Of a stretch of 26,651 nt of DNA, positions 1,675-21,866 are shown piece by piece (the first letter of the stretch is position 1; each line of letters opens with the position of its first letter). The notes under the pieces were generated by a model. That model was not told where the DNA came from, ran no database searches, and was given only the letters and a program-made list of their open reading frames with translations. Source of the stretch: Methylibium sp. (GTDB lineage: Bacteria; Pseudomonadota; Gammaproteobacteria; Burkholderiales; Burkholderiaceae_C); contig JBEIRS010000001.1 in the NCBI GenBank assembly GCA_040375795.1, forward strand, positions 1 through 26,651, read 5' to 3'. A program made the position numbers and the translations under genes.

Positions 1675-3020
1675 TGAAGCAATACCCCGCCTATCCCCAA
1701 TACTCGTCGCAAGGTTTTCCGATTACTTGGGAACGGAAACGCCTGAGATTTTCCGTACAAATGAATCCAAGCAAAAGCGAGATAGAGCTGGGTGATTCTG
1801 ATCTGGTTTCTTTCGTGCCAATGGATGCAGTAGGAGAATACGGGGGAGTCCGTCTGAGCGAACAAAAAGAACTGAGCGAAATTGGTGGCGGCTATACCTA
1901 TTTTTGTGACGACGATGTGGTGGTGGCGAAAATCACGCCGTGTTTCGAAAACGGAAAGTCAGCCTTGGCAAAAGGGTTGACTAACAAAACGGCTTTTGGG
2001 ACCACCGAGCTTCATGTTTTACGTGCACATGTCAATCAGGTTGCGCCGCAATTCTTGTTCTATCTCACCATTTCACACCTATTCCGAAAGCTCGGAGAGT
2101 CGGAAATGTACGGGGCCGGTGGGCAGAAACGGGTACCAGAAGACTTCATCAAGAATTTCCGAGCTGGATTCCCCTCACCAGTTGAACAACAAACCATCGC
2201 CCGCTTCCTCGATTTCAAAACCGCACAAATTGATGCCCTGATCGCAAAGAAAAAAGAGCTACTCGACAAGCTGGCCGAAAAGCGCACGGCGCTCATCAGC
2301 CATGCCGTCACCAAGGGGCTTGATCCGTCCCTGGCGATGAAGGAGTCTAAGGTTGAGTGGCTAGGCTCAATTCCGCAAGACTGGAAGGAAACAAGGGTCA
2401 AATATTTGGGGGATTTGATCCTTGGGTTAACTTATTCGCCAGATGACGTCGTAAGTGATGGTGGCACCCTCGTTCTGCGTTCCTCCAACGTCCAAGAAGG
2501 AAAAATATCCCTTGACGACTGCGTCTATGTCAGTTGCGACATACCAAAGAAGGTCATAACAAAAGCCGACGACATCCTGATTTGCTCGCGAAATGGGAGT
2601 CGCGCGCTTATTGGAAAGTGCGCACTACTAACAGAGGAAGTAAGCAATCAAGCCTTCGGTGCATTCATGACAGTTTTGCGGTCGAGACATGCTCGATTCT
2701 TGTATTATGTTCTCAATTCAACCCTGTTCAAATTCCAGTCTGGCCGATTTCTCACATCAACAATTAATCAGCTAACTACGCAAACACTTGGGGATTTTGA
2801 AATTGCGTTGCCGCCTGAAGAAACGCAAGCAGAAATCGTCAACCATCTCGATAAAGCTACTGCGGCAATTGATGCTCAATGCAGAAAAGCGCAAACCGTC
2901 ATCGATCGGTTGACCGAGTATCGTGGCGCGCTGATAACCAACGCCGTCACCGGAAAAATCGATGTGCGCGGTTTTGAAATTCCACAGACCGTAGAAATTC
3001 AGGAGCCCGCTCATGCCTGA
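1674..3020 (+). CDS. hsdS: Type I R-M specificity subunit S (about 448 aa, two TRDs)
   Basis: ATG at 1674 is coupled to the hsdM stop; the ORF-track start at 1521 is too early. Two repeated conserved helical blocks (EQQTIARFLD..IDALIAKK..LISHAVTKGLD and TQAEIVNHLD..IDAQ..LITNAVTGKID) separate two variable TRDs (KITPCFENGK/GGQKRVP and LRSSNVQ/STINQL). Confidence 0.93.
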   Translation: MKQYPAYPQYSSQGFPITWERKRLRFSVQMNPSKSEIELGDSDLVSFVPMDAVGEYGGVRLSEQKELSEIGGGYTYFCDDDVVVAKITPCFENGKSALAKGLTNKTAFGTTELHVLRAHVNQVAPQFLFYLTISHLFRKLGESEMYGAGGQKRVPEDFIKNFRAGFPSPVEQQTIARFLDFKTAQIDALIAKKKELLDKLAEKRTALISHAVTKGLDPSLAMKESKVEWLGSIPQDWKETRVKYLGDLILGLTYSPDDVVSDGGTLVLRSSNVQEGKISLDDCVYVSCDIPKKVITKADDILICSRNGSRALIGKCALLTEEVSNQAFGAFMTVLRSRHARFLYYVLNSTLFKFQSGRFLTSTINQLTTQTLGDFEIALPPEETQAEIVNHLDKATAAIDAQCRKAQTVIDRLTEYRGALITNAVTGKIDVRGFEIPQTVEIQEPAHA

Positions 3021-4054
3021 TCTCGTGCCCCTGCCGCCCGATTACGCCGCTTGGCTCAGCGAACTCAAAACCCGCATCCATAGCGCCCAGCAGCGTGCCG
3101 CGCTGGCGGTCAACCGCGAACTGGTGTTGCTGTACTGGCAGATTGGGCAGGACATCTTGCAACGGCAAAGCAACGAGGGCTGGGGTGCCAAGGTGATTGA
3201 CCGGCTGTTGCGCGATTTGCGGGCGGCCTTTCCAACGATGAAGGGGTTTTCAGCGCGCAACCTCAAGTACATGCGCTACTTTGCCGAACATTGCCCGGCG
3301 CAGCAATTTGGGCAGCAGCCTGCTGCCCAAATTGCCGTGGTTTCACATCGTGACCCTGCTCACCCAGCTGCAAACGCCCGCGGAGCGGGAGTGGTATGCC
3401 TGCCAGACGGTGCAGCAGGCGTGGTCACGCACCACGCTGGAGCTGCAAATTAAAAGCCGTCTGATGCAGCGCCAAGGCCAAGCGGTGACCAACTTTGGCG
3501 CTCGGTTGCCCGCTCCTGATTCGGGCTTGGCGCATGACACGCTCAAAGACCCCTATCTGTTCGACTTTCTGGGCTTGGGCCATGACGCGCACGAGCGCGA
3601 GATTGAAACCGCTCTGGTGCGCCACATCACCCGCTTTTTGCTGGAGCTGGGCACGGGCTTTGCCTTTGTGGGGCGTCAGCACCGCCTCGAGGTGGCAGGC
3701 GATGAGTTCTTCATTGACTTGTTGTTCTATCACACCCGTTTGAAGTGTTATGTGGTGGTGGAGTTGAAGGCCGTGGCTTTCAAGCCCGAGCATGCCGGGC
3801 AGCTGAACTTTTACTTGGCGGCGGTGGATGCCCAAGTCAGAGGGCCGGACGACAACCCCACCATTGGCCTTTTGCTGTGCAAAACGCACAACCGGCTGGT
3901 GGCGGAATATGCATTGTCGGGCATTGACAAGCCGATTGGCGTGGCCGAATACGCTCTGGTGCGCGACTTGCCCGAGCGCCTGAGCACCAGCCTGCCGACC
4001 ATTGAGGACCTGGAGCAAGAGCTGGGCGATTTGCCGGACGATGCGGCCCTGTGA
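3013..4054 (+). pseudogene. yhcG: DUF1016/YhcG-family PD-(D/E)XK nuclease-domain gene split by a +1 frameshift near 3329-3331
   Basis: The N-half (AVNRELVLLYWQIG..WGAKVIDRL..KGFSARNLKYMR, 3013-3330) and the C-half (LPWFHIV..LKDPYLFDFLGL..FIDLLFYHTRLKCYVVVELK..GQLNFYL..PTIGLLLC) lie in different frames. Removing one A from GCC CAA A TTG CCG TGG restores AQLPW. Confidence 0.85.
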
Positions 4055-4107: not shown

Positions 4108-7100
4108 ATGCACAAAGAAATCGACTTTGAAAACGACATTGAGAATGCGAAAATTGAGCTCGGTGTCTACGAAAAAGGTGATCCCCACAAATAAGACCAT
4201 GAAGCGGCCCTGTTTCCGGCAGATGAGATAGCCTTTGTGCAAAAGACGCAGCCCAAGATCTGGACGCGCCTGACTCAGCTCGACGCCGCCCAAGCGCCCG
4301 CGCTGCTGCTGGACAGCTTGGTGAAGGAGCTTGCCGCCAAAGGCGCCTTGGGCGTTTTGCGCGAGGGTTTCAAGTGCGTGGGCAAGACGGTGCGGCTGGC
4401 CTACTTTGCGCCCAACACCGGGCTCGACCCGGCAAGCACCGAGCGTTACGACGACAACCGCCTGACCATCGTGCGGCAGGTGAACACCAAGAGCGGGTCT
4501 ATCCCCGATGTGGTGTTGGCGGTGAACGGCTTGCCCGTGGCCACGCTGGAGCTCAAGAACCCGATGTCGGCCACGCGCTGGAACGTGGAGCACGCCAAGC
4601 ATCAATATCGGTTTGAGCGTGACCCCAAGGAGTTGTTGTTCGCCTTCAAGCAGCGTTGCCTGGTGCATTTTGCCGTGGATACCGAGCTGGTGTTCATGAC
4701 CACCAAGCTGGAGGGCAAAGACACCTTCTTCCTGCCCTTCAATCTGGGGCATGACTTTGGTGCGGGCAACCCGCCAGTGATGAATGACCATGGGGGCGAT
4801 GTGCGCACCTCCTATCTTTGGCACAAGGTGTTGACCCGTGACAGCCTGATGGACATCCTGGCCCGATTCATCCATTTGGACGTCGAGGAAAAGACCATCG
4901 TCACCGACAAGGGCATCAAGCGCCACCGCAAGGAGACGATGATCTTCCCGCGCTACCACCAGTTGGATGCAGTACGCGCACTGACCGACCACGCGCAGGT
5001 GCATGGTTCGGGACACAACTACTTGATCCAGCATTCCGCTGGTTCAGGCAAATCGAACTCGATTGCGTGGCTGGCGCACCGCCTCTCCAGCCTGCACGAC
5101 GCCAGCAACGAGAAGATTTTCCATTCGGTGGTGGTGATCACCGACCGGCGCGTGCTGGATCAACAGTTGCAGGACACGATCTTCCAGTTTGAACACAAGC
5201 TGGGCGTGGTGCAAAAGATCGACGAAAACACACAGCAGTTGGCCAAGGCGCTGGCCGATGGCGTGCCCATCATCATTTCCACCATCCAGAAGTTCCCGTT
5301 CATCACCCAAGCCATTCGCACGATGGAGGCCAACGGCAAAGGGGTCGCCATCTCGACCGCGGGCAAGCGCTTCGCGGTGATCGTGGACGAGGCGCACAGT
5401 TCGCAAAGTGGTGAAACCGCCATGGAGTTGCGCAAGATCCTGAACAAGGACGGCATTGAATCCGCCATTGCCGAGCAGTTGTTAGACATGGACGACGATG
5501 CCTTGAGCGAAGAGGCAAAGAAGGAGCTGCTGCGTGAACAACTCAAGCGTGCCAAACAACCCAACTTGAGTTTCTTTGCCTTCACCGCAACGCCCAAGTT
5601 CAAGACAATGGCCGTTTTCAATGAACCCGGCCCCAACGGCAAAGCGCCTTTTCACCACTACAGCATGCGGCAGGCCATCGAGGAAGGCTTCATTCACGAC
5701 GTGCTGGCCCACTACACCTGCTATAAGCGCTACTACAAGCTGATCCAGAAGGTGGAGGCAGACCCCGAGGTGCCGCGCCGCAAGGCCGCCCGCGCACTGG
5801 CGCGGTTCGTCGAGTTTCACGACTACGAAATCGCACAGAAAGTCGAAGTGATCGTGGAGCACTTTCGCACCCATACCCGCCACAAAATGGGCGGCCGGGC
5901 CAAAGCGATGGTGGTGACCGGCTCGCGCGAACACGCTGTGCGCTACAAGCTCGGGTTCGACAAGTACATCAAGGACAAGGGCTACACCGACGTGAAATCA
6001 CTGGTGGCGTTCTCCGGAGAAATCACGCTCAAAGAGTTCGCCGACAAAAAATTCACTGAAGTCAGCATGAACCACGGCATCAAGGAATCCGAGCTGCCGG
6101 AGAAGTTCAACACCGAGGAATACCAAGTCTTGCTGGTGGCCGAAAAGTACCAGACGGGTTTTGACCAGCCGCTGTTGCACAGCATGTACGTCGATAAGCG
6201 CTTGTCGGGCATCCAGGCGGTACAGACACTCTCGCGCCTGAATCGAATGACACGAGGCAAGACCGACACCTTCGTGCTCGATTTTGTCAACGAGCCTGCC
6301 GACATTTACACCGCCTTCAAGCCCTATTACGAGACGACGGACAGGGGTGATGACACTGATCCGCAACAGCTCAATACCTTGGCGCACACGCTTGCCAACT
6401 GGAAAGTCTATACCGAAGCCGAGGTCAGTGCTTGGTGCGAAATCTGGTTCCGCAATCGTCTGAACCCCACGGGCGGCGAGCACAAAAAATTGAATGGCCT
6501 GCTCGATCTGGCAATGGAGCGGTTCAAAAAGTTCGCGGAAGAAGACCAGAACCTGTTCAAGGGGCAACTCGTCAGCTTTCGCAATCTGTACAGTTTTATT
6601 TCCCAGATCGTGCCTTACCAGGATTCCGATCACGAGAAGCTGTACACCTACGCCCGTTTTCTGCTGACCAAGCTGCCGCGCATCACGGACAACCGGAGGG
6701 TGCAGATCGACGACGAAGTTGAACTCAAGTATTACCGACTGCAAAAAATCAGTGAGGGGGCGATTGATCTGAAAGTGGGCGAGCCAGAAGCCTTGTACGG
6801 GCCAACAGCGGTAGGCACCGGCCACGCTGATGAGGACGTACAGCTTTCCAGCCTGGTTGAAAAACTCAACGAACGCTTTGGAACCGAGTTCACCCCGGCC
6901 GACCAATTATTTTTTGATCAAGTTCGCGAAACCGCGGTGGGCAATGAACAGTTGCGACAGGCCGTCATGGCCAACAGCATCGAAAATTTCGAACCGGTGT
7001 TTAACAAGCAGCTTGAGAACCTGTTCATTGAGCGCATGGATGGCAACGAAGAAATTTTTGTCCGCCTGATGAACGATAAGGCATTTCGGAATGTGGCGGC

Positions 7101-7161
7101 GAGCCATCTGATGCGGGCCGTGTACCAACAAATCCGAACATCCGGCAAGAACGGCGAGTGA
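4108..7161 (+). pseudogene. hsdR: Type I restriction endonuclease subunit R with an in-frame TAA at 4192-4194 (nonsense mutation or sequencing error)
   Basis: GGAGG RBS at about 4092 and ATG at 4108 (MHKEIDFENDIE..YEKGDPHK*DHEAALFPAD) are in frame with ORF 4237-7161. Contains the nuclease motif PDVVLAVNGLPVATLELKN, Walker A QHSAGSGKS, DEAH, FTATPK, QTGFDQP and QTLSRLNR. Confidence 0.9.
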
Positions 7162-7236
7162 CGAGATTGGTCACGATCGTTGATCGAGCCGCTGCGTCCG
7201 GTGACCTGGCTGTTTTTGCCCGCCACATGAGCGGGT

Positions 7237-7531
7237 TCATTCCAAAATCCCTGATGAATTGACAATCCGGTTCCACTCCAGCGCCCGCTTGCGCCAGTAA
7301 CTGACCAGCATGGGGCTGCGCGAGGTACTGCCCCCGGTTTTGCGCACGCAGGCTGCCATCAGGGGCGAGAGACAGACCAAGATTGGCGCCATCCAGCTTT
7401 TCCTCCACCACCACGTCACCCGCCAGCAGTGCCGTCACCTCGTCAGGCGACAGCACCTTGTCGTCACGCGGCGAGCCTTCGCCCAGCCACGCCAGGTGAG
7501 GTGTGTGGGGGAAGCGGAAGAAGTCGGTCAA
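7237..7531 (-). pseudogene. ATP-dependent RNA ligase-family gene remnant with a large internal deletion
   Basis: GAGGA RBS then TTG at 7531 gives TDFFRFPHTPHLAWLG..VVVEEKLDGANLGLS..LRAQNRG..PHAGQ (nucleotidyltransferase motif I KxDG and a motif Ia-like NRG). At 7298/7299 this joins abruptly, in another frame, to WRKRALEWNRI, which I recognise as the C-terminus of this family. The central motifs III-V are absent. Confidence 0.72.
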
Positions 7532-7545
7532 TCGACGATCCTCAC

Positions 7546-8073
7546 TCAGCGCGCCTGTTTCTCGGCATGTTTTTGCCTTGACCATTCTTCAATGATGGGC
7601 TCCAGTAAAACGCTATTGGCCAGAAGTTCAGCCTCCCAGTCATGCCAATCAGTGTCACTGGCAAAAGCAACGCAGCCCTCGCCATATTGCCGGTGTGAAT
7701 CTAGCGCAGCGGCTACCATTTTCTTGTCTGCGTCGTCATGGATCACAGCCAGAAGTGGTGGCTGCAATACGCCGTGCCCATGCTCGTCATAGGTAACATC
7801 GACGTTGTTAACGGCCGCCGTGCTCCACTTGTGGATCACCACCTGAATGCCGAAATCGTTGAAGCCAAGCTTCTTGCTGTATTCCTCGTAGATACCATTC
7901 GCTGAATCCAAAACCATTCGGGATGTGCTGCCCTGAAAATCATTCAACCATTGCCAGATCCGCATACGTAATCGCGGGTCAGCAGGTGTTGCATCAATAT
8001 CCTTGGGATGGGTCGGATCTGCTGCGCTGCCTGCAATCAGCACATTGGTATCGACAATGTAGCGATCCCTCAT
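7546..8073 (-). CDS. PIN-domain (VapC-like fold) putative ribonuclease, 175 aa
   Basis: N-terminal YIVDTNVLIA (D8), GIYEEY (E63/E64), HDDADKKMVAAA (D116) and FASDTDW (D140/D142) give the acidic PIN tetrad in the expected order. Its ATG overlaps the stop of the upstream ATPase (ATGA). Confidence 0.75.
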   Translation of the reverse strand: MRDRYIVDTNVLIAGSAADPTHPKDIDATPADPRLRMRIWQWLNDFQGSTSRMVLDSANGIYEEYSKKLGFNDFGIQVVIHKWSTAAVNNVDVTYDEHGHGVLQPPLLAVIHDDADKKMVAAALDSHRQYGEGCVAFASDTDWHDWEAELLANSVLLEPIIEEWSRQKHAEKQAR

Positions 8074-9371
8074 ATTTTGTTCTCCTGCTGGCGCGTGAAC
8101 ATCAAGCGCGCCTGCTCTCGCGTCTCACCCAAGGCATCGCCAAAGAACCCCTCTGGCCAGTTTTTCACACGCCCGAAATCATCCAGCTCCAGCGGCCGCA
8201 TGCGTGCGGGCATGCGTTCGGCTTTGTCGTCGTCGCGCTCGACGAAATACAGCGCCGCGTCTTTAGGGGTGATTTGCTGCTTGGCGATCAGCGTTTGCAT
8301 GCGCCGGAACAGGTGTTCGGAGTGGGTTTCGACGATGAACTGGACGTTGCGCTCTTGGCTGACCTCTACGAATAACTCAGCTAAAACAGATTGCGCCCGA
8401 GGATGGAGGTGAATCTCTGGTTCTTCCAGGGTGATGGTGCTTCCCTCTGGGGCAAAATAAGCAATGGTCAGCACGGGCAAGACTTGTGATATGCCTATAC
8501 CGACATCGCGTAGGTTTGCTTCAACACCAGCGCGGTGTACCACCAGCTCGTAGCGCGTCGAACGCCCAAGCTGCTTGACCTCCAGTTTATCGGCCACGTT
8601 CATTCGCACCAACCACTTGGAAACGCCTTCAATGATGCGGTTTTGATCGTCGCCTTTCATCAAAGAGCTCGCCAGCAGTACATCAAAAGTCCGATGACCA
8701 TCGCTGCCTACTTCACCGGGTTTGGTCTTATTCCACGGGTAATCTCGTTCAGGCTTACGACGTAACGGGCCGAGATAAACAATATTGTCTAGTTCACGGC
8801 GAATGGACAAGCTTAAGTCCTCAAGCACGGCACCATCTTGTCCCAGCATGGCGATGGCTTCTGCGGACAAGGACACGGAGCGCTCAGGGGATAAATGACG
8901 CCCTTTTTCTCGCGGCAGGCTCTCTTCATCAACCACGATCGAATACGCACCTTTATCGCGGCGCACAGATCTAAATTGACGGTTATCCGTTTTTACCAGC
9001 CAATCTTGAATCGCCACACCACCAGCCGAGTTCTGACCGTAGGTGCAAGAAAAATGGCCGCTGCCAACACGGGCAGGAGCGGGGGATTGAAAAGAGAATG
9101 CCAGCGTAAAATATCTTGGATTCACCGCCCCTTGGCGCAATATGTTGTCAAAGTCGCCGAAATTAAAGAGATCATTGACTTCATCCCCGCCCAAGTTTAA
9201 ATGGATACTGCGATCTGGCGATTGCACTGTTTGTTTAAGTAGCAAAAGACTTTGTATCAACGTGGATTTGCCTGATGAGTTAGTGCCAAGCAGCATGGTA
9301 ACTGGCTTGAGGTCAATATCACCCGTGTTCTCCCAAGCTTTAAAATTAGTGAGTTTTAATCGGGTAAACAT
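8070..9371 (-). CDS. ABC-superfamily ATPase (AAA_21/AAA_15 type) with a C-terminal DUF3696-like tail, 433 aa
   Basis: Likely start is ATG 9371 (MFTRLKLTNFKAW). Contains Walker A GTNSSGKS, YLGPLR, signature-like NLRDVGIGISQVLP, Walker B/D-loop ITLEEPEIHLHP, H-switch IVETHSEH and C-terminal LDDFGRVKNWPEGFFG typical of DUF3696. Confidence 0.9.
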   Translation of the reverse strand: MFTRLKLTNFKAWENTGDIDLKPVTMLLGTNSSGKSTLIQSLLLLKQTVQSPDRSIHLNLGGDEVNDLFNFGDFDNILRQGAVNPRYFTLAFSFQSPAPARVGSGHFSCTYGQNSAGGVAIQDWLVKTDNRQFRSVRRDKGAYSIVVDEESLPREKGRHLSPERSVSLSAEAIAMLGQDGAVLEDLSLSIRRELDNIVYLGPLRRKPERDYPWNKTKPGEVGSDGHRTFDVLLASSLMKGDDQNRIIEGVSKWLVRMNVADKLEVKQLGRSTRYELVVHRAGVEANLRDVGIGISQVLPVLTIAYFAPEGSTITLEEPEIHLHPRAQSVLAELFVEVSQERNVQFIVETHSEHLFRRMQTLIAKQQITPKDAALYFVERDDDKAERMPARMRPLELDDFGRVKNWPEGFFGDALGETREQARLMFTRQQENKI

Positions 9372-9649
9372 CCGTGCAATTCTCCATTGTTCAATTGGTC
9401 CCACGATTCCAACACCAGCCGCTGGGTTCGGTATTCACCGTATTCTCGCAGTTCTTTGTTTTTCAGCACACGGAAAGTTTCGCTGGGGTCATCGTCGCCC
9501 ATCACGTCCGCGGGGTCGAGGATGTAGCGGAGTTCGTCGCGAGTCAGGCCGTAGAGTTTGGCGTAGGTGGCGTCGAGTTCGGCGCGGAGTATAGTATCGC
9601 GCGGCGCTCGGGGTTGAAGGCATAGGGTTGGCCGTCAAAGCCTAAATCC
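9356..9649 (-). pseudogene. C-terminal remnant of a large Eco57I/type IIG-like (DISARM DrmMI-like) DNA methyltransferase
   Basis: Manual translation gives DLGFDGQPYAFNPERRAI / LRAELDATYAKLYGLTRDELRYILDPADVMGDDDPSETFRVLKNKELREYGEYRTQRLVLESWD, a C-terminal signature I recognise from this MTase family. It is cut at 9649 by an IS3 end and frameshifted by a 5-bp duplication. Its stop overlaps the ATPase start. Confidence 0.65.
9588..9597. repeat. Perfect 5-bp tandem duplication AGTAT-AGTAT
   Basis: Seen directly. Removing one copy restores the reading frame RRAILRAELDA of the MTase remnant. Confidence 0.8.
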
Positions 9650-10041
9650 TGACCTTGCCCCTCGTTCCCGGAGTCGTTAACCTGTGGTTTACGCAGCCTT
9701 TTTACGCTGTGCCGTGAACCAGCGTTTCTCGAATTGCATTGGACTGAGGTCGTCCAGTGATGAATGTAGTCTGCGGTGATTGTAAAAAGCGATCCAGTTC
9801 ATCACGGCTTGCAGGGCTTGTGGACGGGTGGTAAATTGGCGCCCATGCACGCTGGCTGTCTTGAGACGGCCCCAGAAGCTCTCCGTGGCTGCGTTGTCCC
9901 AGCAGGTCCCCTTGCGGCTCATCAACGAGCGCATCCCCCAACTCTTCCATGCATCCTGGAATTCCTGACTGCCGTATTGACTGCCTCTGTCGCCATGGAA
10001 GATCAGGCCAGGCTCGGGCTTTCGCCTGAACCAGGCCATGT
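9650..10041 (-). mobile_element. IS3-family remnant: 3' part of the OrfB transposase plus the right terminal repeat
   Basis: MAWFRRKPEPGLIFHGDRGSQY..MSRKGTCWDNAATESFWGRLK..FYNHRRLHSSLDDLSPMQFE is an rve/DDE core, with its stop at 9689. The terminus TGACCTTGCCCC at 9650 has the IS3 5'-TG..CA-3' form. The 5' part is missing. Confidence 0.85.
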
Positions 10042-10219
10042 CTACTACCCCTTGGCGATCCTGCCCACGGCCGCAGAGCAGAGTTTTGATTGGCAATTGC
10101 AATTATTGATGGATCGGAAGCGTAAGCTCGCTTTGAATCTGCTGGCTGCTCCCACGTTCACTAAAGATGACTATGACGGCTTGATATCTGGTATACAAAG
10201 ACGGGCGACTGCAGCCTGA
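10040..10219 (+). pseudogene. Possible C-terminal remnant of an SNF2-family helicase
   Basis: VYYPLAILPTAAEQSFDWQLQLLMDRKRKLALNLL resembles the segment that follows motif VI in SNF2-like defence helicases. The fragment is short and has no catalytic motifs, so the call is tentative. Confidence 0.35.
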
Positions 10220-10537: not shown

Positions 10538-10542
10538 GGAGG

Positions 10543-10636
10543 GCTGCTCCGGGGTGCTGGGAATTGTCCCGGCTGAGATGGCCACTGTGTTCAAACCCGT
10601 GAACTTGAACCGGCTCGCACCGGCGTAAGAAGAGCG
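10543..10636 (+). ncRNA. TPP (thi-box) riboswitch aptamer
   Basis: GGGGTGC..GCTGAGA..ACCCGTGAACTTGA..GG..ACC.GCGTA follows the TPP consensus order, P1 is GCTC/GAGC, and it lies directly upstream of thiC. Confidence 0.9.
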
Positions 10637-10656
10637 ATCGATCCCTCTGCTTGTAA

Positions 10657-12606
<1,950 letters not shown>

Positions 12607-19688: not shown

Positions 19689-20375
19689 CTACTTAGCTGC
19701 CACAACCAGCTCAGTTGTATGGCCGTTGATTCGCTCAGTTTGAGAGTGGTTGCTGTAAGTCGGCCAGTCTGGGTAATATTCTTCAGACTGATCACCCCAT
19801 ACCTGCCAGCCTGGACGAGCACCACGGGCGAACATTTCCAGATAAGGGCCAGGACTGCATGATTCGACTATCTCGTAAAACTCATCCGGCTTACGAGAAT
19901 GCTCCCGCTTCCGCGTTGCCAAGAAATTGACCTGGCTTCGACCTGGATCAAGGGTACGAGCATTCTTACCTCTCACACCAAACAAAATTAGCTCGGTGAC
20001 ATTGCGAAAATAGAAACCCACACCGCGCCCGTCTGGGCCTCCATCTTTGCGGATCTTGTGCCACACTAAATTGCTCTTGTATTGGAACCCCCAAGCCTCC
20101 ATTACACGCAATCCGTCAGGCAATAGCGCATTAGGAACCCAGAGGTATAAGTGTGCTGTGTCCTCGGCAAGTTGTTCCACTGGCAAGGCCATAATATCTT
20201 CAAGCTGCATCGTGTCATAGCGTGAAAGGCGCTTGTGCTCCGGGGCTACCTTGCCTGTACGATTTTGAAATTGCCACGGCGGGTCAGCAAGAATTGTTGA
20301 AAAACGCTGTCCGCTATGCGCGGTCAATAATTCACGCGCTGCATCAGGGGCAGCATCTGCTTTTTGTTTTGTCAT
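19689..20375 (-). CDS. MT-A70-family (MunI/METTL3-like) DNA N6-adenine methyltransferase, about 228 aa
   Basis: TILADPPW (motif IV), HLYLWVPNALL, AWGFQY, RNVTELILFG, HSRKP and YLEMFAR (permuted motif I). ATG 20375 overlaps the upstream stop (ATGA). Confidence 0.93.
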   Translation of the reverse strand: MTKQKADAAPDAARELLTAHSGQRFSTILADPPWQFQNRTGKVAPEHKRLSRYDTMQLEDIMALPVEQLAEDTAHLYLWVPNALLPDGLRVMEAWGFQYKSNLVWHKIRKDGGPDGRGVGFYFRNVTELILFGVRGKNARTLDPGRSQVNFLATRKREHSRKPDEFYEIVESCSPGPYLEMFARGARPGWQVWGDQSEEYYPDWPTYSNHSQTERINGHTTELVVAAK

Positions 20376-21193
20376 GATGGTGATTTCCAATCTGTAATCA
20401 ATTTCGGAGTAATTCCGAACACCAACACAGGACAGCCGCCATGCCTTCCGGCGTTAAGCCGGTAAAGTAGCTTTCCCATCCATGTAGTGCTCGCTCCATA
20501 TTTCGCTCTCACGCTCTTTCCAACGGGATTACCGGATCTATCCAGTTGTGGCACAACTTCAAAGACCGCATTCAAACTCGCGCTACGCGTCACCATGACA
20601 CCCGCGCTGATAAGACCACAATCATGGAAAGCACGAAGGGCATAGAGATCACGGTCGAAGGTTTGATCCTTCGAGTTCCATTCCAAGTCAAAAGCCACAC
20701 GCCCTTTCACATAATCAATCTTGTGGCCGTCAATAAAATTCTCGATAATGCGGGGCGTACTCTCTGAACGCTTCACTTTTTTTACTTTCCCCTCTGCTGG
20801 AAATAGTTCGTCGTACTCTTGCATCCGCACAAGTAAATCGCCTTGGATACGAGTCTCAACCCAGCCAGCAGGACGCAATGTGCGAGAAAATTTCTTTGGC
20901 ATATCGGACTCATTGCCTCCGGGCGTACCAATATCCCGCACGGTAATTCGGAATTCAAGCAAAGCACGCTCAATTTCCTTTAATTCTTCAGGGAAAGAAT
21001 TAGCGAGAATTGCAGCAGCGTGGCGGTAGCTGTACACGTCATAAAGCGCCCTAACTTCAGCGCTGATATACCGCTCAATATCGGCAGGATGGTCAGCATT
21101 GGAGCCAGGCCGCAGCGCTACGTCCTCGACTATTTCGATATCTTGCTCTTTGACCTCGCTTGCAGTGAGATCTGGATCTTCTTGTTGGGTCAT
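20372..21193 (-). CDS. BglII/BstYI-family type II restriction endonuclease (5' end uncertain, possibly frameshifted)
   Basis: YSYRHAAAIL, GGNES, HKIDYVKGRVAFDLEWNSKDQTFDRDL, GVMVTRS and GGCPVLVFGI; coupled to an MT-A70 MTase, a known pairing. The annotated ATG lacks an adjacent RBS. Confidence 0.85.
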   Translation of the reverse strand: MTQQEDPDLTASEVKEQDIEIVEDVALRPGSNADHPADIERYISAEVRALYDVYSYRHAAAILANSFPEELKEIERALLEFRITVRDIGTPGGNESDMPKKFSRTLRPAGWVETRIQGDLLVRMQEYDELFPAEGKVKKVKRSESTPRIIENFIDGHKIDYVKGRVAFDLEWNSKDQTFDRDLYALRAFHDCGLISAGVMVTRSASLNAVFEVVPQLDRSGNPVGKSVRAKYGASTTWMGKLLYRLNAGRHGGCPVLVFGITPKLITDWKSPS

Positions 21194-21244
21194 GTAAAGT
21201 GCTCGTAGCCATAGCTTGCCTCCTTAATAGGCTGGTTGTGGTTA

Positions 21245-21278
21245 GGCAAGCGCAGCGGTTACAGCCGTTGCACTTGCC
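21245..21278 (-). other. Intergenic stem-loop between the resolvase and the endonuclease
   Basis: On the minus strand GGCAAGTGCA..TGCGCTTGCC forms a 10-bp stem with one G-U pair plus an inner CGG/CCG. No U-tract follows. Confidence 0.5.
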
Positions 21279-21293
21279 GCCTGGTTTTCTTAA

Positions 21294-21866
21294 TTACCTT
21301 GACGAAACATGTGCTCCGTCAAGGTTTTTATAAAGCGTTGTGCGTGACACGCCGTAGCGTTTTGCTATGTCCGTCACTGGGACTGTCTTCGCGTCGTAGA
21401 GTGCTTGAATCTCCCGACGCTCCTTATCACCAATCTTTGGCTTCCTGCCTCCAGTTCGCCCCCGTGCGCGTGCAGCAACAAGCCCGGCCTGTGTGCGTTC
21501 TCGAATCAGATTGCGCTCAAACTCCGCCAATGCCGCGAACATGTGAAACACCAGCTTCCCCGTTGCATTGCCGGTATCGATTTTTTCCGTCAAGCTTTCA
21601 AAACCGATACCAGCCTGCTCTAACTCGGTCACGATCTGCACCAGGTCAGACAAAGAACGGCCTAACCTGTCGAGCCGCCACACTACCAGGGTGTCACCTG
21701 CCCGTAACGCCTTGCGGCATTGCTCAAGCTCGGGGCGGATAGCAGTCTTGCCGCTGGCCGACTCCTCGTAGATCAAACTGCACCCGGCCTGCGTCAGCGC
21801 ATCACGCTGTAAATCAAGGAGCTGATCATCCGTTGAAACACGGGCATACCCAATGCGTTGATTCAT
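21294..21866 (-). CDS. Serine recombinase (resolvase/invertase, Hin/Pin/TnpR type), 190 aa
   Basis: IGYARVST (catalytic Ser11), RPEL, GDTLVVWRLDRLGRS, FERNLIRERTQAGL, GRTGGRK and a C-terminal HTH IAKRYGVSRTTLYK. Confidence 0.95.
   Translation of the reverse strand: MNQRIGYARVSTDDQLLDLQRDALTQAGCSLIYEESASGKTAIRPELEQCRKALRAGDTLVVWRLDRLGRSLSDLVQIVTELEQAGIGFESLTEKIDTGNATGKLVFHMFAALAEFERNLIRERTQAGLVAARARGRTGGRKPKIGDKERREIQALYDAKTVPVTDIAKRYGVSRTTLYKNLDGAHVSSR

What the first reader, a model, noticed from the sequence alone, without database searches (positions are those of the whole stretch)
7546..9371. Candidate undescribed two-gene defence system: DUF3696-type ABC ATPase translationally coupled to a PIN nuclease
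Seen: two intact ORFs with an ATGA overlap, a complete set of ABC motifs (Walker A, signature-like, Walker B, H-switch), a full PIN acidic tetrad, and a position between a type I R-M locus and a type IIG-like MTase remnant. Known: ABC-ATPase sensor plus nuclease effector is the architecture of PARIS (AriA+TOPRIM), Septu (PtuA+HNH) and Gabija GajA/OLD, and DUF3696 ATPases occur in Menshen with a DUF262 partner. Here the effector is a 175-aa PIN protein, there is no DUF262, TOPRIM or HNH partner, and no VapB-type antitoxin is present. Inference: the ATPase holds the PIN RNase inactive and releases it on sensing a phage protein (for example an anti-restriction DNA mimic), giving abortive infection that backs up the adjacent R-M. 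I cannot match this pair to a named system from memory.
Basis: partly seen in the sequence, partly recalled or inferred. Interest (0 to 1): 0.85.

Follow-up and report, generated by a model that had tools for sequence, protein, structure and literature searches.

The report
Known HEC-03 defence pair, ligase broken
The two genes are a real but divergent copy of HEC-03, a sensor ATPase plus RNA-cutting PIN nuclease already shown in 2024 to protect bacteria from phages. Here the pair sits in a decayed island where its usual third gene, an RNA ligase, has been destroyed by a 404-base internal deletion.

Summary
Observation confirmed. An ABC ATPase (8070-9371, minus strand, 433 aa) and a PIN protein (7546-8073, 175 aa) overlap by ATGA.

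The claim "undescribed" is wrong.
- The ATPase best matches PADLOC's HEC-03 ATPase model (E 1.8e-87). The PIN matches the HEC-03 PIN model weakly (E 7.7e-7).
- A profile-profile comparison with canonical HEC-03 PINs gives 99.4% probability.
- HEC-03 (Payne et al., bioRxiv 2024) protects E. coli from phages and needs both genes.

What the finding missed:
- In this branch the pair is part of a larger cassette. The ATPase is adjacent in 73 of 74 loci.
- An Rnl-type RNA ligase follows in 61 of 66 loci, and an HNH_2 gene follows in about a third.
- In the window the ligase is a pseudogene with a 404-nt internal, frame-shifting deletion (pieces 7531-7299 and 7298-7237).
- The deletion joint also occurs in an independent freshwater sample. 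A second contig of the same assembly carries the intact allele.
- The upstream methylase is a DISARM-type (DrmMI-like) C-terminal stump cut by an IS3 remnant.

This scan has already reported HEC-03 plus ligase in at least 19 other genomes. It is a new member of a known kind, of low to moderate interest.

The parts
8070..9371 (-). HEC-03-family ABC ATPase, 433 aa from ATG 9371: OLD/AAA_15-type head with a DUF3696 C-terminal tail. Intact.
   Evidence: ORF. Pfam AAA_15 3e-25, AAA_21 6e-22, DUF3696 1.4e-14. PADLOC HEC-03 ATPase model PDLC04148 at 1.8e-87, ahead of NsnB at 1.4e-62. Motif positions. Start codon agrees with 82 of 82 homologues. All invariant columns of 62 homologues are kept.
7546..8073 (-). 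PIN-domain nuclease, 175 aa, the HEC-03 effector; acidic residues D8, E64, D116, D142. Intact.
   Evidence: ORF with ATGA overlap. PADLOC PDLC04147 at 7.7e-7. hhalign against canonical HEC-03 PINs gives 99.4%, E 1.2e-21. AF2 pLDDT 97.1. VapC21 Z 9.9, and the 41 best matches are PIN-like folds. 32 of 69 family members touch Pfam PIN_3.
7299..7531 (-). RNA ligase pseudogene, 5' piece: TTG start at 7531 and 77 codons, including motif I (EEKLDGAN, the adenylylation lysine).
   Evidence: Pfam RNA_ligase 3e-6 on the N-terminal part only. tblastn to full-length ligases covers residues 1-79. DNA alignment shows homology ends at 7299. Junction mapped against contig C144.
7237..7298 (-). RNA ligase pseudogene, 3' piece: the last 20 codons and the stop, in another frame. 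The 404 nt between the two pieces are deleted, removing motifs III, IIIa, IV and V.
   Evidence: C144 positions 467-535 match window 7298-7230 and positions 1-62 match 7360-7299. Translation of this piece ends like the C-terminus of intact ligases. The joint is bridged by a contig from an independent sample (X4 record 23, 7222-7530, no gap).
9359..9654 (-). C-terminal stump of a DrmMI-like (DISARM/type IIG-like) methyltransferase; its last codons overlap the ATPase start.
   Evidence: tblastn to the 1417-aa methylase of L014 covers residues 1326-1417. That methylase hits PADLOC DrmMI at 4e-77. Reading frame.
9689..10102 (-). Fragment of an IS3-family transposase (integrase core only) that ends the methylase stump.
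   Evidence: Pfam rve_3 7.5e-16, rve_2 and rve, C-terminal part only. Raised and variable depth with loose ends in the source sample.
4237..7161 (+). hsdR of the neighbouring type I R-M locus, convergent with the cassette. Context only, not part of the system.
   Evidence: Pfam HSDR_N, SWI2_SNF2, ResIII and T1R_D3-like. Not a neighbour of the cassette in the related loci whose gene content was examined.

Best explanation
The pair is a divergent member of the HEC-03 anti-phage family. It is the surviving core of a larger cassette (ATPase, PIN nuclease, RNA ligase, often an HNH_2 nuclease) that once sat behind the methylase of a DISARM/Hma-type operon.

Shown:
- Both proteins are homologous over their full length to HEC-03 proteins.
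- The two genes are almost always adjacent and overlapping.
- The PIN keeps its four acidic residues.
- The ATPase keeps all nucleotide-binding motifs, but residues 61-270 and 361-390 are hypervariable.
- HEC-03 from Pseudomonas cichorii protects E. coli and needs both genes.

Inferred mechanism. An oligomer of the ABC ATPase holds the PIN nuclease through its DUF3696 tails, as predicted for the homologous NsnB tails and the PIN-like domain of NsnC in Menshen. The variable inserts of the ATPase sense a phage cue. The nuclease is then released or activated and cuts RNA, most likely tRNA or rRNA as VapC enzymes do, which stops translation and aborts the infection. A metal-dependent cut is expected to leave 3'-OH and 5'-phosphate ends. 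Those are exactly what an ATP-dependent Rnl-type ligase seals, so in intact cassettes the ligase probably reseals leaky or post-infection damage.

In this window that ligase is dead (404-nt frame-shifting deletion), the HNH gene is gone apart from its first codons, and the upstream methylase and its promoter region are lost. At best a ligase-less two-gene HEC-03 remains.
For: Family assignment: PADLOC HEC-03 ATPase model at 1.8e-87, the best of 147 hits, and the HEC-03 PIN model at 7.7e-7. hhalign of the window's PIN clade against canonical HEC-03 PINs gives 99.4% over 162 columns with the DTNV, EY, DxxDRK and TDxxW motifs aligned.

Published function of HEC-03.

Linkage:
- ATPase adjacent upstream in 11 of 11 genome loci and 73 of 74 metagenome loci, ending 4 nt into the PIN gene in most loci.
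- Ligase adjacent in 61 of 66 loci, all full length, and found further downstream in four of the other five.
- The triple stands alone between housekeeping genes in L015 and L016.
- HNH_2 is a fourth gene in about 30 of about 100 loci.

PIN fold and residues.

Ligase: all nucleotidyltransferase motifs are conserved in 42 intact relatives. Its model (pLDDT 91) matches NgrRnl, Rnl3, REL1 and T4 Rnl2 at E 6e-8 to 3e-6.

Deletion in the window.

Hypervariable ATPase inserts beside a conserved PIN: in L004-L007 the ATPase is 46-47% and the PIN 81-83% identical to the window's.

DUF3696-PIN docking precedent: PMC12065111. End chemistry of metal-ion nucleases: PMC12409363. An earlier computational proposal that an RNA ligase neutralises the nucleases in PIN_3/ATPase/HNH/ligase operons is summarised in PMC5499597.
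Against: - No experiment exists on this clade. The tested HEC-03 shares only about 35% (ATPase) and 25% (PIN) identity with it.
- The PIN match to the PADLOC model is weak, and Pfam does not call a PIN in the window protein.
- The substrate (RNA or DNA), the trigger and the stoichiometry are all unknown.
- The only complex prediction I ran gave no answer.
- No promoter-like site was found upstream of the ATPase on the minus strand after the methylase was cut (a weak consensus scan only), so expression here is uncertain.
- Loss of the ligase, HNH and methylase suggests a locus in decay.
Confidence: 0.8

Rival explanations
1. The pair is a relic with no present function. The ORFs are still open, but the operon has lost its promoter, methylase, ligase and HNH gene and is on its way to pseudogenisation.
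For: The methylase is cut by an IS3 fragment. The ligase carries a 404-nt deletion. Only the first codons of HNH_2 remain. No sigma-70-like promoter was found on the minus strand between 9372 and 10300. A neighbouring YhcG gene is also frameshifted.
Against: Both ORFs are full length and keep every invariant residue of 62 and 69 homologues, and good Shine-Dalgarno sequences remain. The same ligase-deleted allele is present in an independent sample, so it has persisted and spread. The tested HEC-03 works as two genes.
Confidence: 0.2
2. The pair is chiefly a toxin-antitoxin or addiction module that stabilises the island: the PIN is the toxin and the ATPase the antidote. Phage defence would be incidental.
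For: The PIN fold is closest to VapC toxins. Pfam AAA_21 is annotated as related to a type IV TA component. HEC-03 expression was toxic on induction. The cassette moves horizontally: the PIN is 70-87% identical across Nitrosomonas, Aeromonas, Delftia, Shewanella and Pseudomonas.
Against: There is no VapB-type gene. HEC-03 reduced plaquing by orders of magnitude and needed both genes. The ATPase inserts are hypervariable as expected of a sensor. The cassette is embedded in DISARM-like defence loci.
Confidence: 0.1
3. The pair is a reduced Menshen system (NsnB plus an NsnC-like protein) that has lost NsnA.
For: The ATPase hits the NsnB model at 1.4e-62 over its whole length and carries DUF3696. 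NsnC has an N-terminal PIN-like domain predicted to dock on DUF3696.
Against: The HEC-03 ATPase model scores much better, 292 against 210 bits. No DUF262/GmrSD_N was found anywhere in the assembly, though it is only 77.8% complete. NsnC PIN-like domains lack the D-E-D-D residues and carry a C-terminal nuclease. This protein keeps the residues and has no extra domain. No NsnA-like gene lies next to the pair in the loci annotated with Pfam.
Confidence: 0.05
4. The nuclease acts on DNA rather than RNA, for example on phage replication intermediates, and the ligase seals nucleic-acid nicks in general.
For: Some PIN-like superfamily members are DNA or flap nucleases (PMC5499597). An HNH_2 DNA-type nuclease often joins the cassette. 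DNA ligases appear lower in the ligase fold list.
Against: The closest folds for the PIN are VapC RNases and for the ligase are RNA ligases, with DNA ligases 3-4 orders of magnitude weaker. The authors of HEC-03 class the PIN as VapC-like.
Confidence: 0.12

Closest known systems
HEC-03 (Hma-embedded candidate 03; Payne, Hughes, Fineran, Jackson, bioRxiv 10.1101/2024.01.29.577857; PADLOC-DB models PDLC04147 and PDLC04148; tested pair from Pseudomonas cichorii ATCC 10857)
   Same: An ABC ATPase with a DUF3696 tail is followed by an overlapping VapC-like PIN gene of 157-180 aa with the same DTNV, EY, DxxDRK and TDxDW motifs. Both families sit embedded behind helicase-methylase defence operons. 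Both window proteins are homologous over full length.
   Different: This is a distant branch: the ATPase is about 33-36% and the PIN about 25% identical to canonical members. In this branch an RNA ligase almost always follows (61 of 66 loci) and an HNH_2 gene often does. The paper and PADLOC define HEC-03 as two genes, and the ligase hits no PADLOC model. In the canonical branch the ligase follows in 3 of 6 testable loci. In the window the ligase is a pseudogene.
PIN_3 / ATPase / HNH / RNA-ligase conflict operons predicted by Burroughs and Aravind (NAR 2016), as summarised in Matelska et al. 2017 (PMC5499597)
   Same: The gene content matches the full cassette in relatives: ATPase, PIN, RNA ligase and HNH_2. 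The proposed logic also matches, namely that the ligase neutralises the nucleases' damage. 32 of 69 family members touch Pfam PIN_3.
   Different: I could not read the original paper, so identity of the families is not verified. That work is computational only.
Menshen (NsnA-NsnB-NsnC; PMC12065111)
   Same: The NsnB ATPase is homologous, with DUF3696 (E 1.4e-62). The effector carries a PIN-fold domain predicted to be clamped by two DUF3696 tails.
   Different: There is no NsnA sensor. The PIN here is catalytically complete and is itself the effector, whereas in Menshen it is an inactive adaptor fused to another nuclease.
PARIS (AriA ABC ATPase plus AriB TOPRIM tRNase) and Septu/Gabija
   Same: The logic is the same: an OLD-type ABC ATPase scaffold is paired with a metal-dependent nuclease released on sensing a phage cue. 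AriB cuts tRNA leaving 3'-OH and 5'-phosphate.
   Different: The effector fold differs (PIN, not TOPRIM or HNH). AriA models score far lower, 8e-28. No trigger is known.
VapBC toxin-antitoxin modules
   Same: The nuclease fold and acidic active site are those of VapC.
   Different: There is no VapB antitoxin. The partner is a 433-aa ABC ATPase encoded upstream.

Membership tests
HEC-03 | ABC ATPase matching the HEC-03 ATPase profile | tested here: met
   PDLC04148 at E 1.8e-87 (292 bits), the best of 147 PADLOC hits; next are NsnB at 1.4e-62 and PDC-M55A at 4.8e-62.
HEC-03 | PIN-domain partner matching the HEC-03 PIN profile | tested here: met
   PDLC04147 is the only PADLOC hit, at E 7.7e-7 over 5-160 of 175 aa; this is weak. 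hhalign against seven canonical HEC-03 PINs gives 99.4%, E 1.2e-21. PIN fold at Z 9.9.
HEC-03 | The two genes are adjacent and co-oriented, with the ATPase first | tested here: met
   ATGA overlap in the window. Same order in 11 of 11 and 73 of 74 related loci.
HEC-03 | Anti-phage activity that needs both genes | not testable with these tools
   Shown only for the P. cichorii pair.
HEC-03 | Found embedded in Hma or other multi-gene defence operons | tested here: inconclusive
   The window keeps only a DrmMI-like methylase stump. Relatives sit behind an SNF2 helicase plus methylase, but only 12 of 52 metagenome loci have the methylase upstream.
Menshen | NsnA (ParB/DUF262) sensor gene in the operon | tested here: not met
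   No PF03235 match in the whole assembly, which is 77.8% complete. None is adjacent in the annotated relatives; a separate GmrSD-type gene lies further downstream in L012.
Menshen | NsnB ABC ATPase with DUF3696 | tested here: met
   NsnB model at 1.4e-62 and DUF3696 at 1.4e-14.
Menshen | NsnC: an inactive PIN-like domain fused to a C-terminal nuclease | tested here: not met
   The protein is a 175-aa single domain and D8, E64, D116 and D142 are conserved. The definition comes from PMC12065111.
VapBC toxin-antitoxin | A small VapB antitoxin gene directly upstream of the PIN toxin | tested here: not met
   The gene upstream is the 433-aa ATPase, and no small ORF lies between them.
PARIS | AriB TOPRIM effector next to an AriA ATPase | tested here: not met
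   The partner has a PIN fold. AriA models reach only 8.4e-28.
PIN/ATPase/HNH/RNA-ligase conflict operon (Burroughs and Aravind 2016, via PMC5499597) | An intact RNA ligase and an HNH nuclease in the operon | tested here: not met
   In the window the ligase has a 404-nt internal deletion and only the first codons of HNH_2 remain. The feature is met in relatives.

The most novel reading that the evidence does not exclude
The RNA ligase could be the system's own reset enzyme, resealing the 3'-OH/5'-phosphate cuts made by the PIN nuclease so that the growth arrest is reversible. On that reading, the ligase-deleted allele seen here is a natural variant that turns the system into an irreversible, suicide-type defence. 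The deleted allele is also present in a second, independent freshwater sample, and the intact allele occurs on another contig of the same assembly. The two alleles would then coexist because they trade cell survival against the stringency of defence.
Probability: 0.2. Interest if true: 0.6.

Novelty: new member of a known kind. Interest (0 to 1): 0.25.

Why it matters
For annotation, the pair should be labelled HEC-03-family (ABC ATPase plus PIN), not a new system. The ORF after it should be labelled an RNA ligase pseudogene.

The wider point is not specific to this window, and this scan has already reported it in at least 19 other genomes. Most members of this branch carry a dedicated Rnl-type RNA ligase that neither the 2024 paper nor PADLOC includes, and whose role has never been tested. 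A defence system that carries its own repair enzyme would be a clear case of reversible, self-limiting immunity.

This window adds a natural ligase-null allele, with an intact allele in the same community. That pair is a ready-made comparison for testing the idea.

Tried and rejected
- Complex prediction, ATPase plus PIN at 1:1 with my own alignments: score 0.00, verdict 'no answer'. This is evidence neither for nor against binding. A 2:1 or 4:2 design, which the Menshen, PARIS and Septu precedents suggest, exceeded the 1000-residue limit without cutting conserved ends.
- Sequence searches of the PDB found nothing useful, either with the PIN profile or with a full-length ligase. Foldseek on the PIN model was only marginal. 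The exhaustive structural search was needed.
- The scan of viral contigs found no relative of the PIN protein, so there is no sign that phages carry the cassette.
I repeated it with the closer alignment A2.
- I first read the ligase as simply truncated by the type I R-M locus. I rejected that after contig C144 showed an internal 404-nt deletion with the gene's 3' end still present.
- I considered misassembly at 7298/7299. The source sample's Logan contigs break there (7297 and 7311), but a contig from an independent study spans the joint without a gap, so the deletion is real.
- The original Burroughs and Aravind 2016 and Krishnan 2020 papers are not held. I used only the secondary summary in PMC5499597.
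- The apparent ATPase-PIN fusion P0125 is not a Rosetta-stone fusion. It is a deletion derivative joining ATPase residues 1-313 to the PIN.
Full report
**1. Observation**

On the minus strand there are two intact ORFs. One is an ATPase (8070..9404 from a GTG, 8070..9371 from the ATG). The other is a 175-aa protein (7546..8073). The ATPase stop overlaps the next start in ATGA at 8070-8073.

Pfam gives AAA_15, AAA_21 and DUF3696. The ATPase motifs are:
- Walker A GTNSSGKS, 29-36
- YLGPLR, 199-204
- signature-like DVGIG, 289-293
- Walker B LEEPE, 315-319
- H-loop ETHSEH, 348-353
- tail NWPEGFFGD, 404-412

Their key residues are invariant in 62 homologues.

The small protein has no Pfam hit of its own. 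In an alignment of 69 diverse relatives from a 1.8-billion-protein library, D8, E64 and D142 are at least 90% conserved and D116 is invariant. Its AlphaFold2 model is very confident (pLDDT 97.1). Foldseek is only marginal (VapC E 0.022). An exhaustive structural alignment against 48,161 PDB chains puts PIN or PIN-like domains in the first 41 places (VapC21 Z 9.9, VapC15 and VapC11 Z 9.1). In addition, 32 of 69 family members touch Pfam PIN_3.

**2. What it is**

The ATPase's best hit by far is the HEC-03 ATPase model (PDLC04148, 1.8e-87; NsnB 1.4e-62; AriA 8e-28). The small protein's only hit is the HEC-03 PIN model (PDLC04147, 7.7e-7).

Because that second hit is weak, I took seven canonical HEC-03 loci from a 401-genome sample of the class. 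I extracted their PIN genes and compared profiles. The result was 99.4% probability, E 1.2e-21, over 162 columns, with all four acidic motifs in register.

HEC-03 is described in Payne et al. (bioRxiv 10.1101/2024.01.29.577857) as an ABC ATPase plus a VapC-like PIN protein found embedded in Hma systems. The Pseudomonas cichorii pair reduced plaquing of at least two phages by orders of magnitude in E. coli, needed both genes, and was toxic when induced. The system is therefore named and validated. The window's copy is a distant member: the ATPase is 33-36% and the PIN about 25% identical to the canonical branch. Note that the paper calls the ATPase HEC-03A, whereas the PADLOC model named HEC-03B is the ATPase.

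**3. The real unit is larger**

Behind the PIN gene the window has an ORF whose first part matches Pfam RNA_ligase, with motif I EEKLDGAN. I surveyed related loci.

| Feature | Count |
|---|---|
| ATPase directly upstream, genome loci | 11 of 11 |
| ATPase directly upstream, metagenome loci with enough flank | 73 of 74 |
| Full-length RNA ligase (225-248 aa) directly downstream | 61 of 66 |
| Ligase found within 2.1 kb in the other five loci | 4 of 5 |
| Ligase follows, canonical HEC-03 branch, testable loci | 3 of 6 |
| HNH_2 gene follows the ligase | about 30 of about 100 |
| Relatives of the PIN in viral contigs | none |

- In L015 and L016 the three genes stand alone between yajQ and plsY. 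The ligase therefore travels with the pair, not with a host operon.
- The ligase family keeps motifs I, III, IIIa, IV and V. Its model (pLDDT 91) matches Naegleria Rnl5, archaeal Rnl3, trypanosome REL1 and T4 Rnl2 at E 6e-8 to 3e-6. It hits no PADLOC model.
[quoted passage not shown] That gene content matches this cassette. I could not read the original to confirm it is the same family.

**4. State of the cassette in the window**

- The ligase is not merely truncated. A second contig of the same assembly (C144, 1935 nt) begins inside an intact ligase and continues into an HNH_2 gene.
- C144 bases 1-62 match window 7360-7299, with the first 50 bases exact. C144 bases 467-535 match window 7298-7230.
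- The window allele therefore lacks 404 nt. That removes about 135 codons carrying motifs III to V and shifts the frame. What remains is 77 codons (7531-7299) and the last 20 codons plus stop (7298-7237).
- Only the first codons of HNH_2 (MNPL) remain.
- The source sample's independently built contigs break at 7297 and 7311, as expected at a branch between two alleles. A contig from a different study spans 7222-7530 without a gap, so the deletion is real and not confined to one sample. Other samples hold the intact 3' end.
- Upstream, the last 92-98 codons of a methylase (9359-9654) overlap the ATPase start. They match residues 1326-1417 of the 1417-aa DrmMI-like methylase that precedes the cassette in relatives, where an SNF2 (DrmD/DpdE/HmaA-like) helicase comes before it.
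- The stump ends at a fragment of an IS3 transposase (9689-10102).
- No promoter-like site was found upstream on the minus strand. This is a weak test.
- The type I R-M locus converges on the cassette. It is not a neighbour in the related loci I examined.

**5. How it most likely works**

Shown: homology to a validated defence pair; obligate adjacency and overlap of the two genes; intact catalytic motifs in both.

Also shown is an ATPase whose ABC core is conserved while residues 61-270 and 361-390 diverge sharply. In one group those segments are 17-39% and 46% identical to the window's. In genome loci of that ATPase type (L004-L007) the ATPase is 46-47% identical overall, while the PIN is 81-83% identical.

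Inferred: the variable inserts are the sensing surface, as Payne et al. propose. The DUF3696 tails of an ATPase oligomer hold the PIN protein, by analogy with the homologous NsnB tails that are predicted to clamp the PIN-like domain of NsnC in Menshen. A phage cue releases or activates the nuclease, which cuts RNA and aborts infection.

Metal-ion nucleases are expected to leave 3'-OH and 5'-phosphate ends. That PIN enzymes belong to this class is from general knowledge. ATP-dependent Rnl ligases seal exactly such ends without end-healing, also from general knowledge. So the ligase is best read as a repair or antidote function. The substrate, trigger and stoichiometry are untested. My single complex prediction gave no answer.

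In this window only the two-gene core can still work, and whether it is expressed is unknown.

**6. Comparison and novelty**

- Membership in HEC-03 passes every feature I could test.
- Menshen fails on NsnA (no DUF262 in the 77.8%-complete assembly) and on NsnC architecture.
- VapBC fails on VapB, and PARIS fails on TOPRIM.
- The pair is thus a new, divergent member of a known kind.
- The ligase link is absent from the HEC-03 paper's text and from its held supplements. It appears to have been predicted computationally in 2016.
- This scan has already reported it repeatedly: 20 notes in at least 19 genomes, whose follow-ups reached the same reading. Another note covers this same stretch.
- What this window adds is a natural ligase-null allele with an intact allele in the same community.

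**7. Verdict**

The system is not undescribed. Interest is 0.25.

Noticed in passing
G000 contig C144 (locus L106:1-1935), against window 7230-7360: A second contig of the same assembly starts inside an intact copy of the RNA ligase (from about residue 58) and runs into an HNH_2 gene. It shares an exact 50-nt overlap with the window and then differs by SNPs and by the 404 nt missing in the window. It is either a co-existing strain allele or a second cassette.
   Followed up: partly
window 7530 to 9369 (read-laying run X2, record 11): In another sample a contig joins the methylase end directly to the ligase start, with 139 other letters in place of the 1838-nt ATPase-PIN pair. Relatives therefore exist with methylase then ligase and no pair, which points to modular insertion or excision of the pair.
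   Followed up: no
window 3013-4054 (+): A YhcG/DUF1016 PD-(D/E)XK nuclease gene embedded between hsdS and hsdR is split into two overlapping ORFs (3013..3453 and 3281..4054). DUF1016_N is divided between them, which indicates a frameshift.
   Followed up: partly
window 10540-10648 (+): A TPP riboswitch (Rfam RF00059, 59.8 bits) lies upstream of thiC (10708..12606), followed by thiO-like, thiG and thiD/E genes. This marks the right-hand edge of the island.
   Followed up: yes
window 8070-9371 (-), ATPase residues 61-270 and 361-390: These segments are hypervariable among relatives (17-39% and 46% identity in one group) while the ABC core stays conserved. In genome loci L004-L007, which carry that ATPase type, the ATPase is 46-47% identical overall and the PIN 81-83% identical. 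This looks like recombinational swapping of a sensor region.
   Followed up: partly
protein P0125 (494 aa, metagenomic): This is a derivative in which ATPase residues 1-313 are joined directly to a complete PIN domain, losing Walker B, the H-loop and DUF3696. It is a deletion product, not a designed fusion.
   Followed up: yes
PADLOC-DB models PDLC04147 and PDLC04148 against bioRxiv 10.1101/2024.01.29.577857: The A and B labels are swapped between the two sources. The paper calls the ATPase HEC-03A and the PIN HEC-03B. The PADLOC model named HEC-03B (458 positions) is the ATPase and HEC-03A (159 positions) is the PIN.
   Followed up: yes
window 19689-21866 (-): An MT-A70 methyltransferase, a BglII-like endonuclease and a serine resolvase lie in a row.
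   Followed up: no
window 9341-9582 and 9825-9945: Summed contig depth in the source sample is 4-6 times that of the flanks. This is consistent with the conserved methylase C-terminus and the IS3 fragment being shared with other genomes or copies in the community.
   Followed up: no
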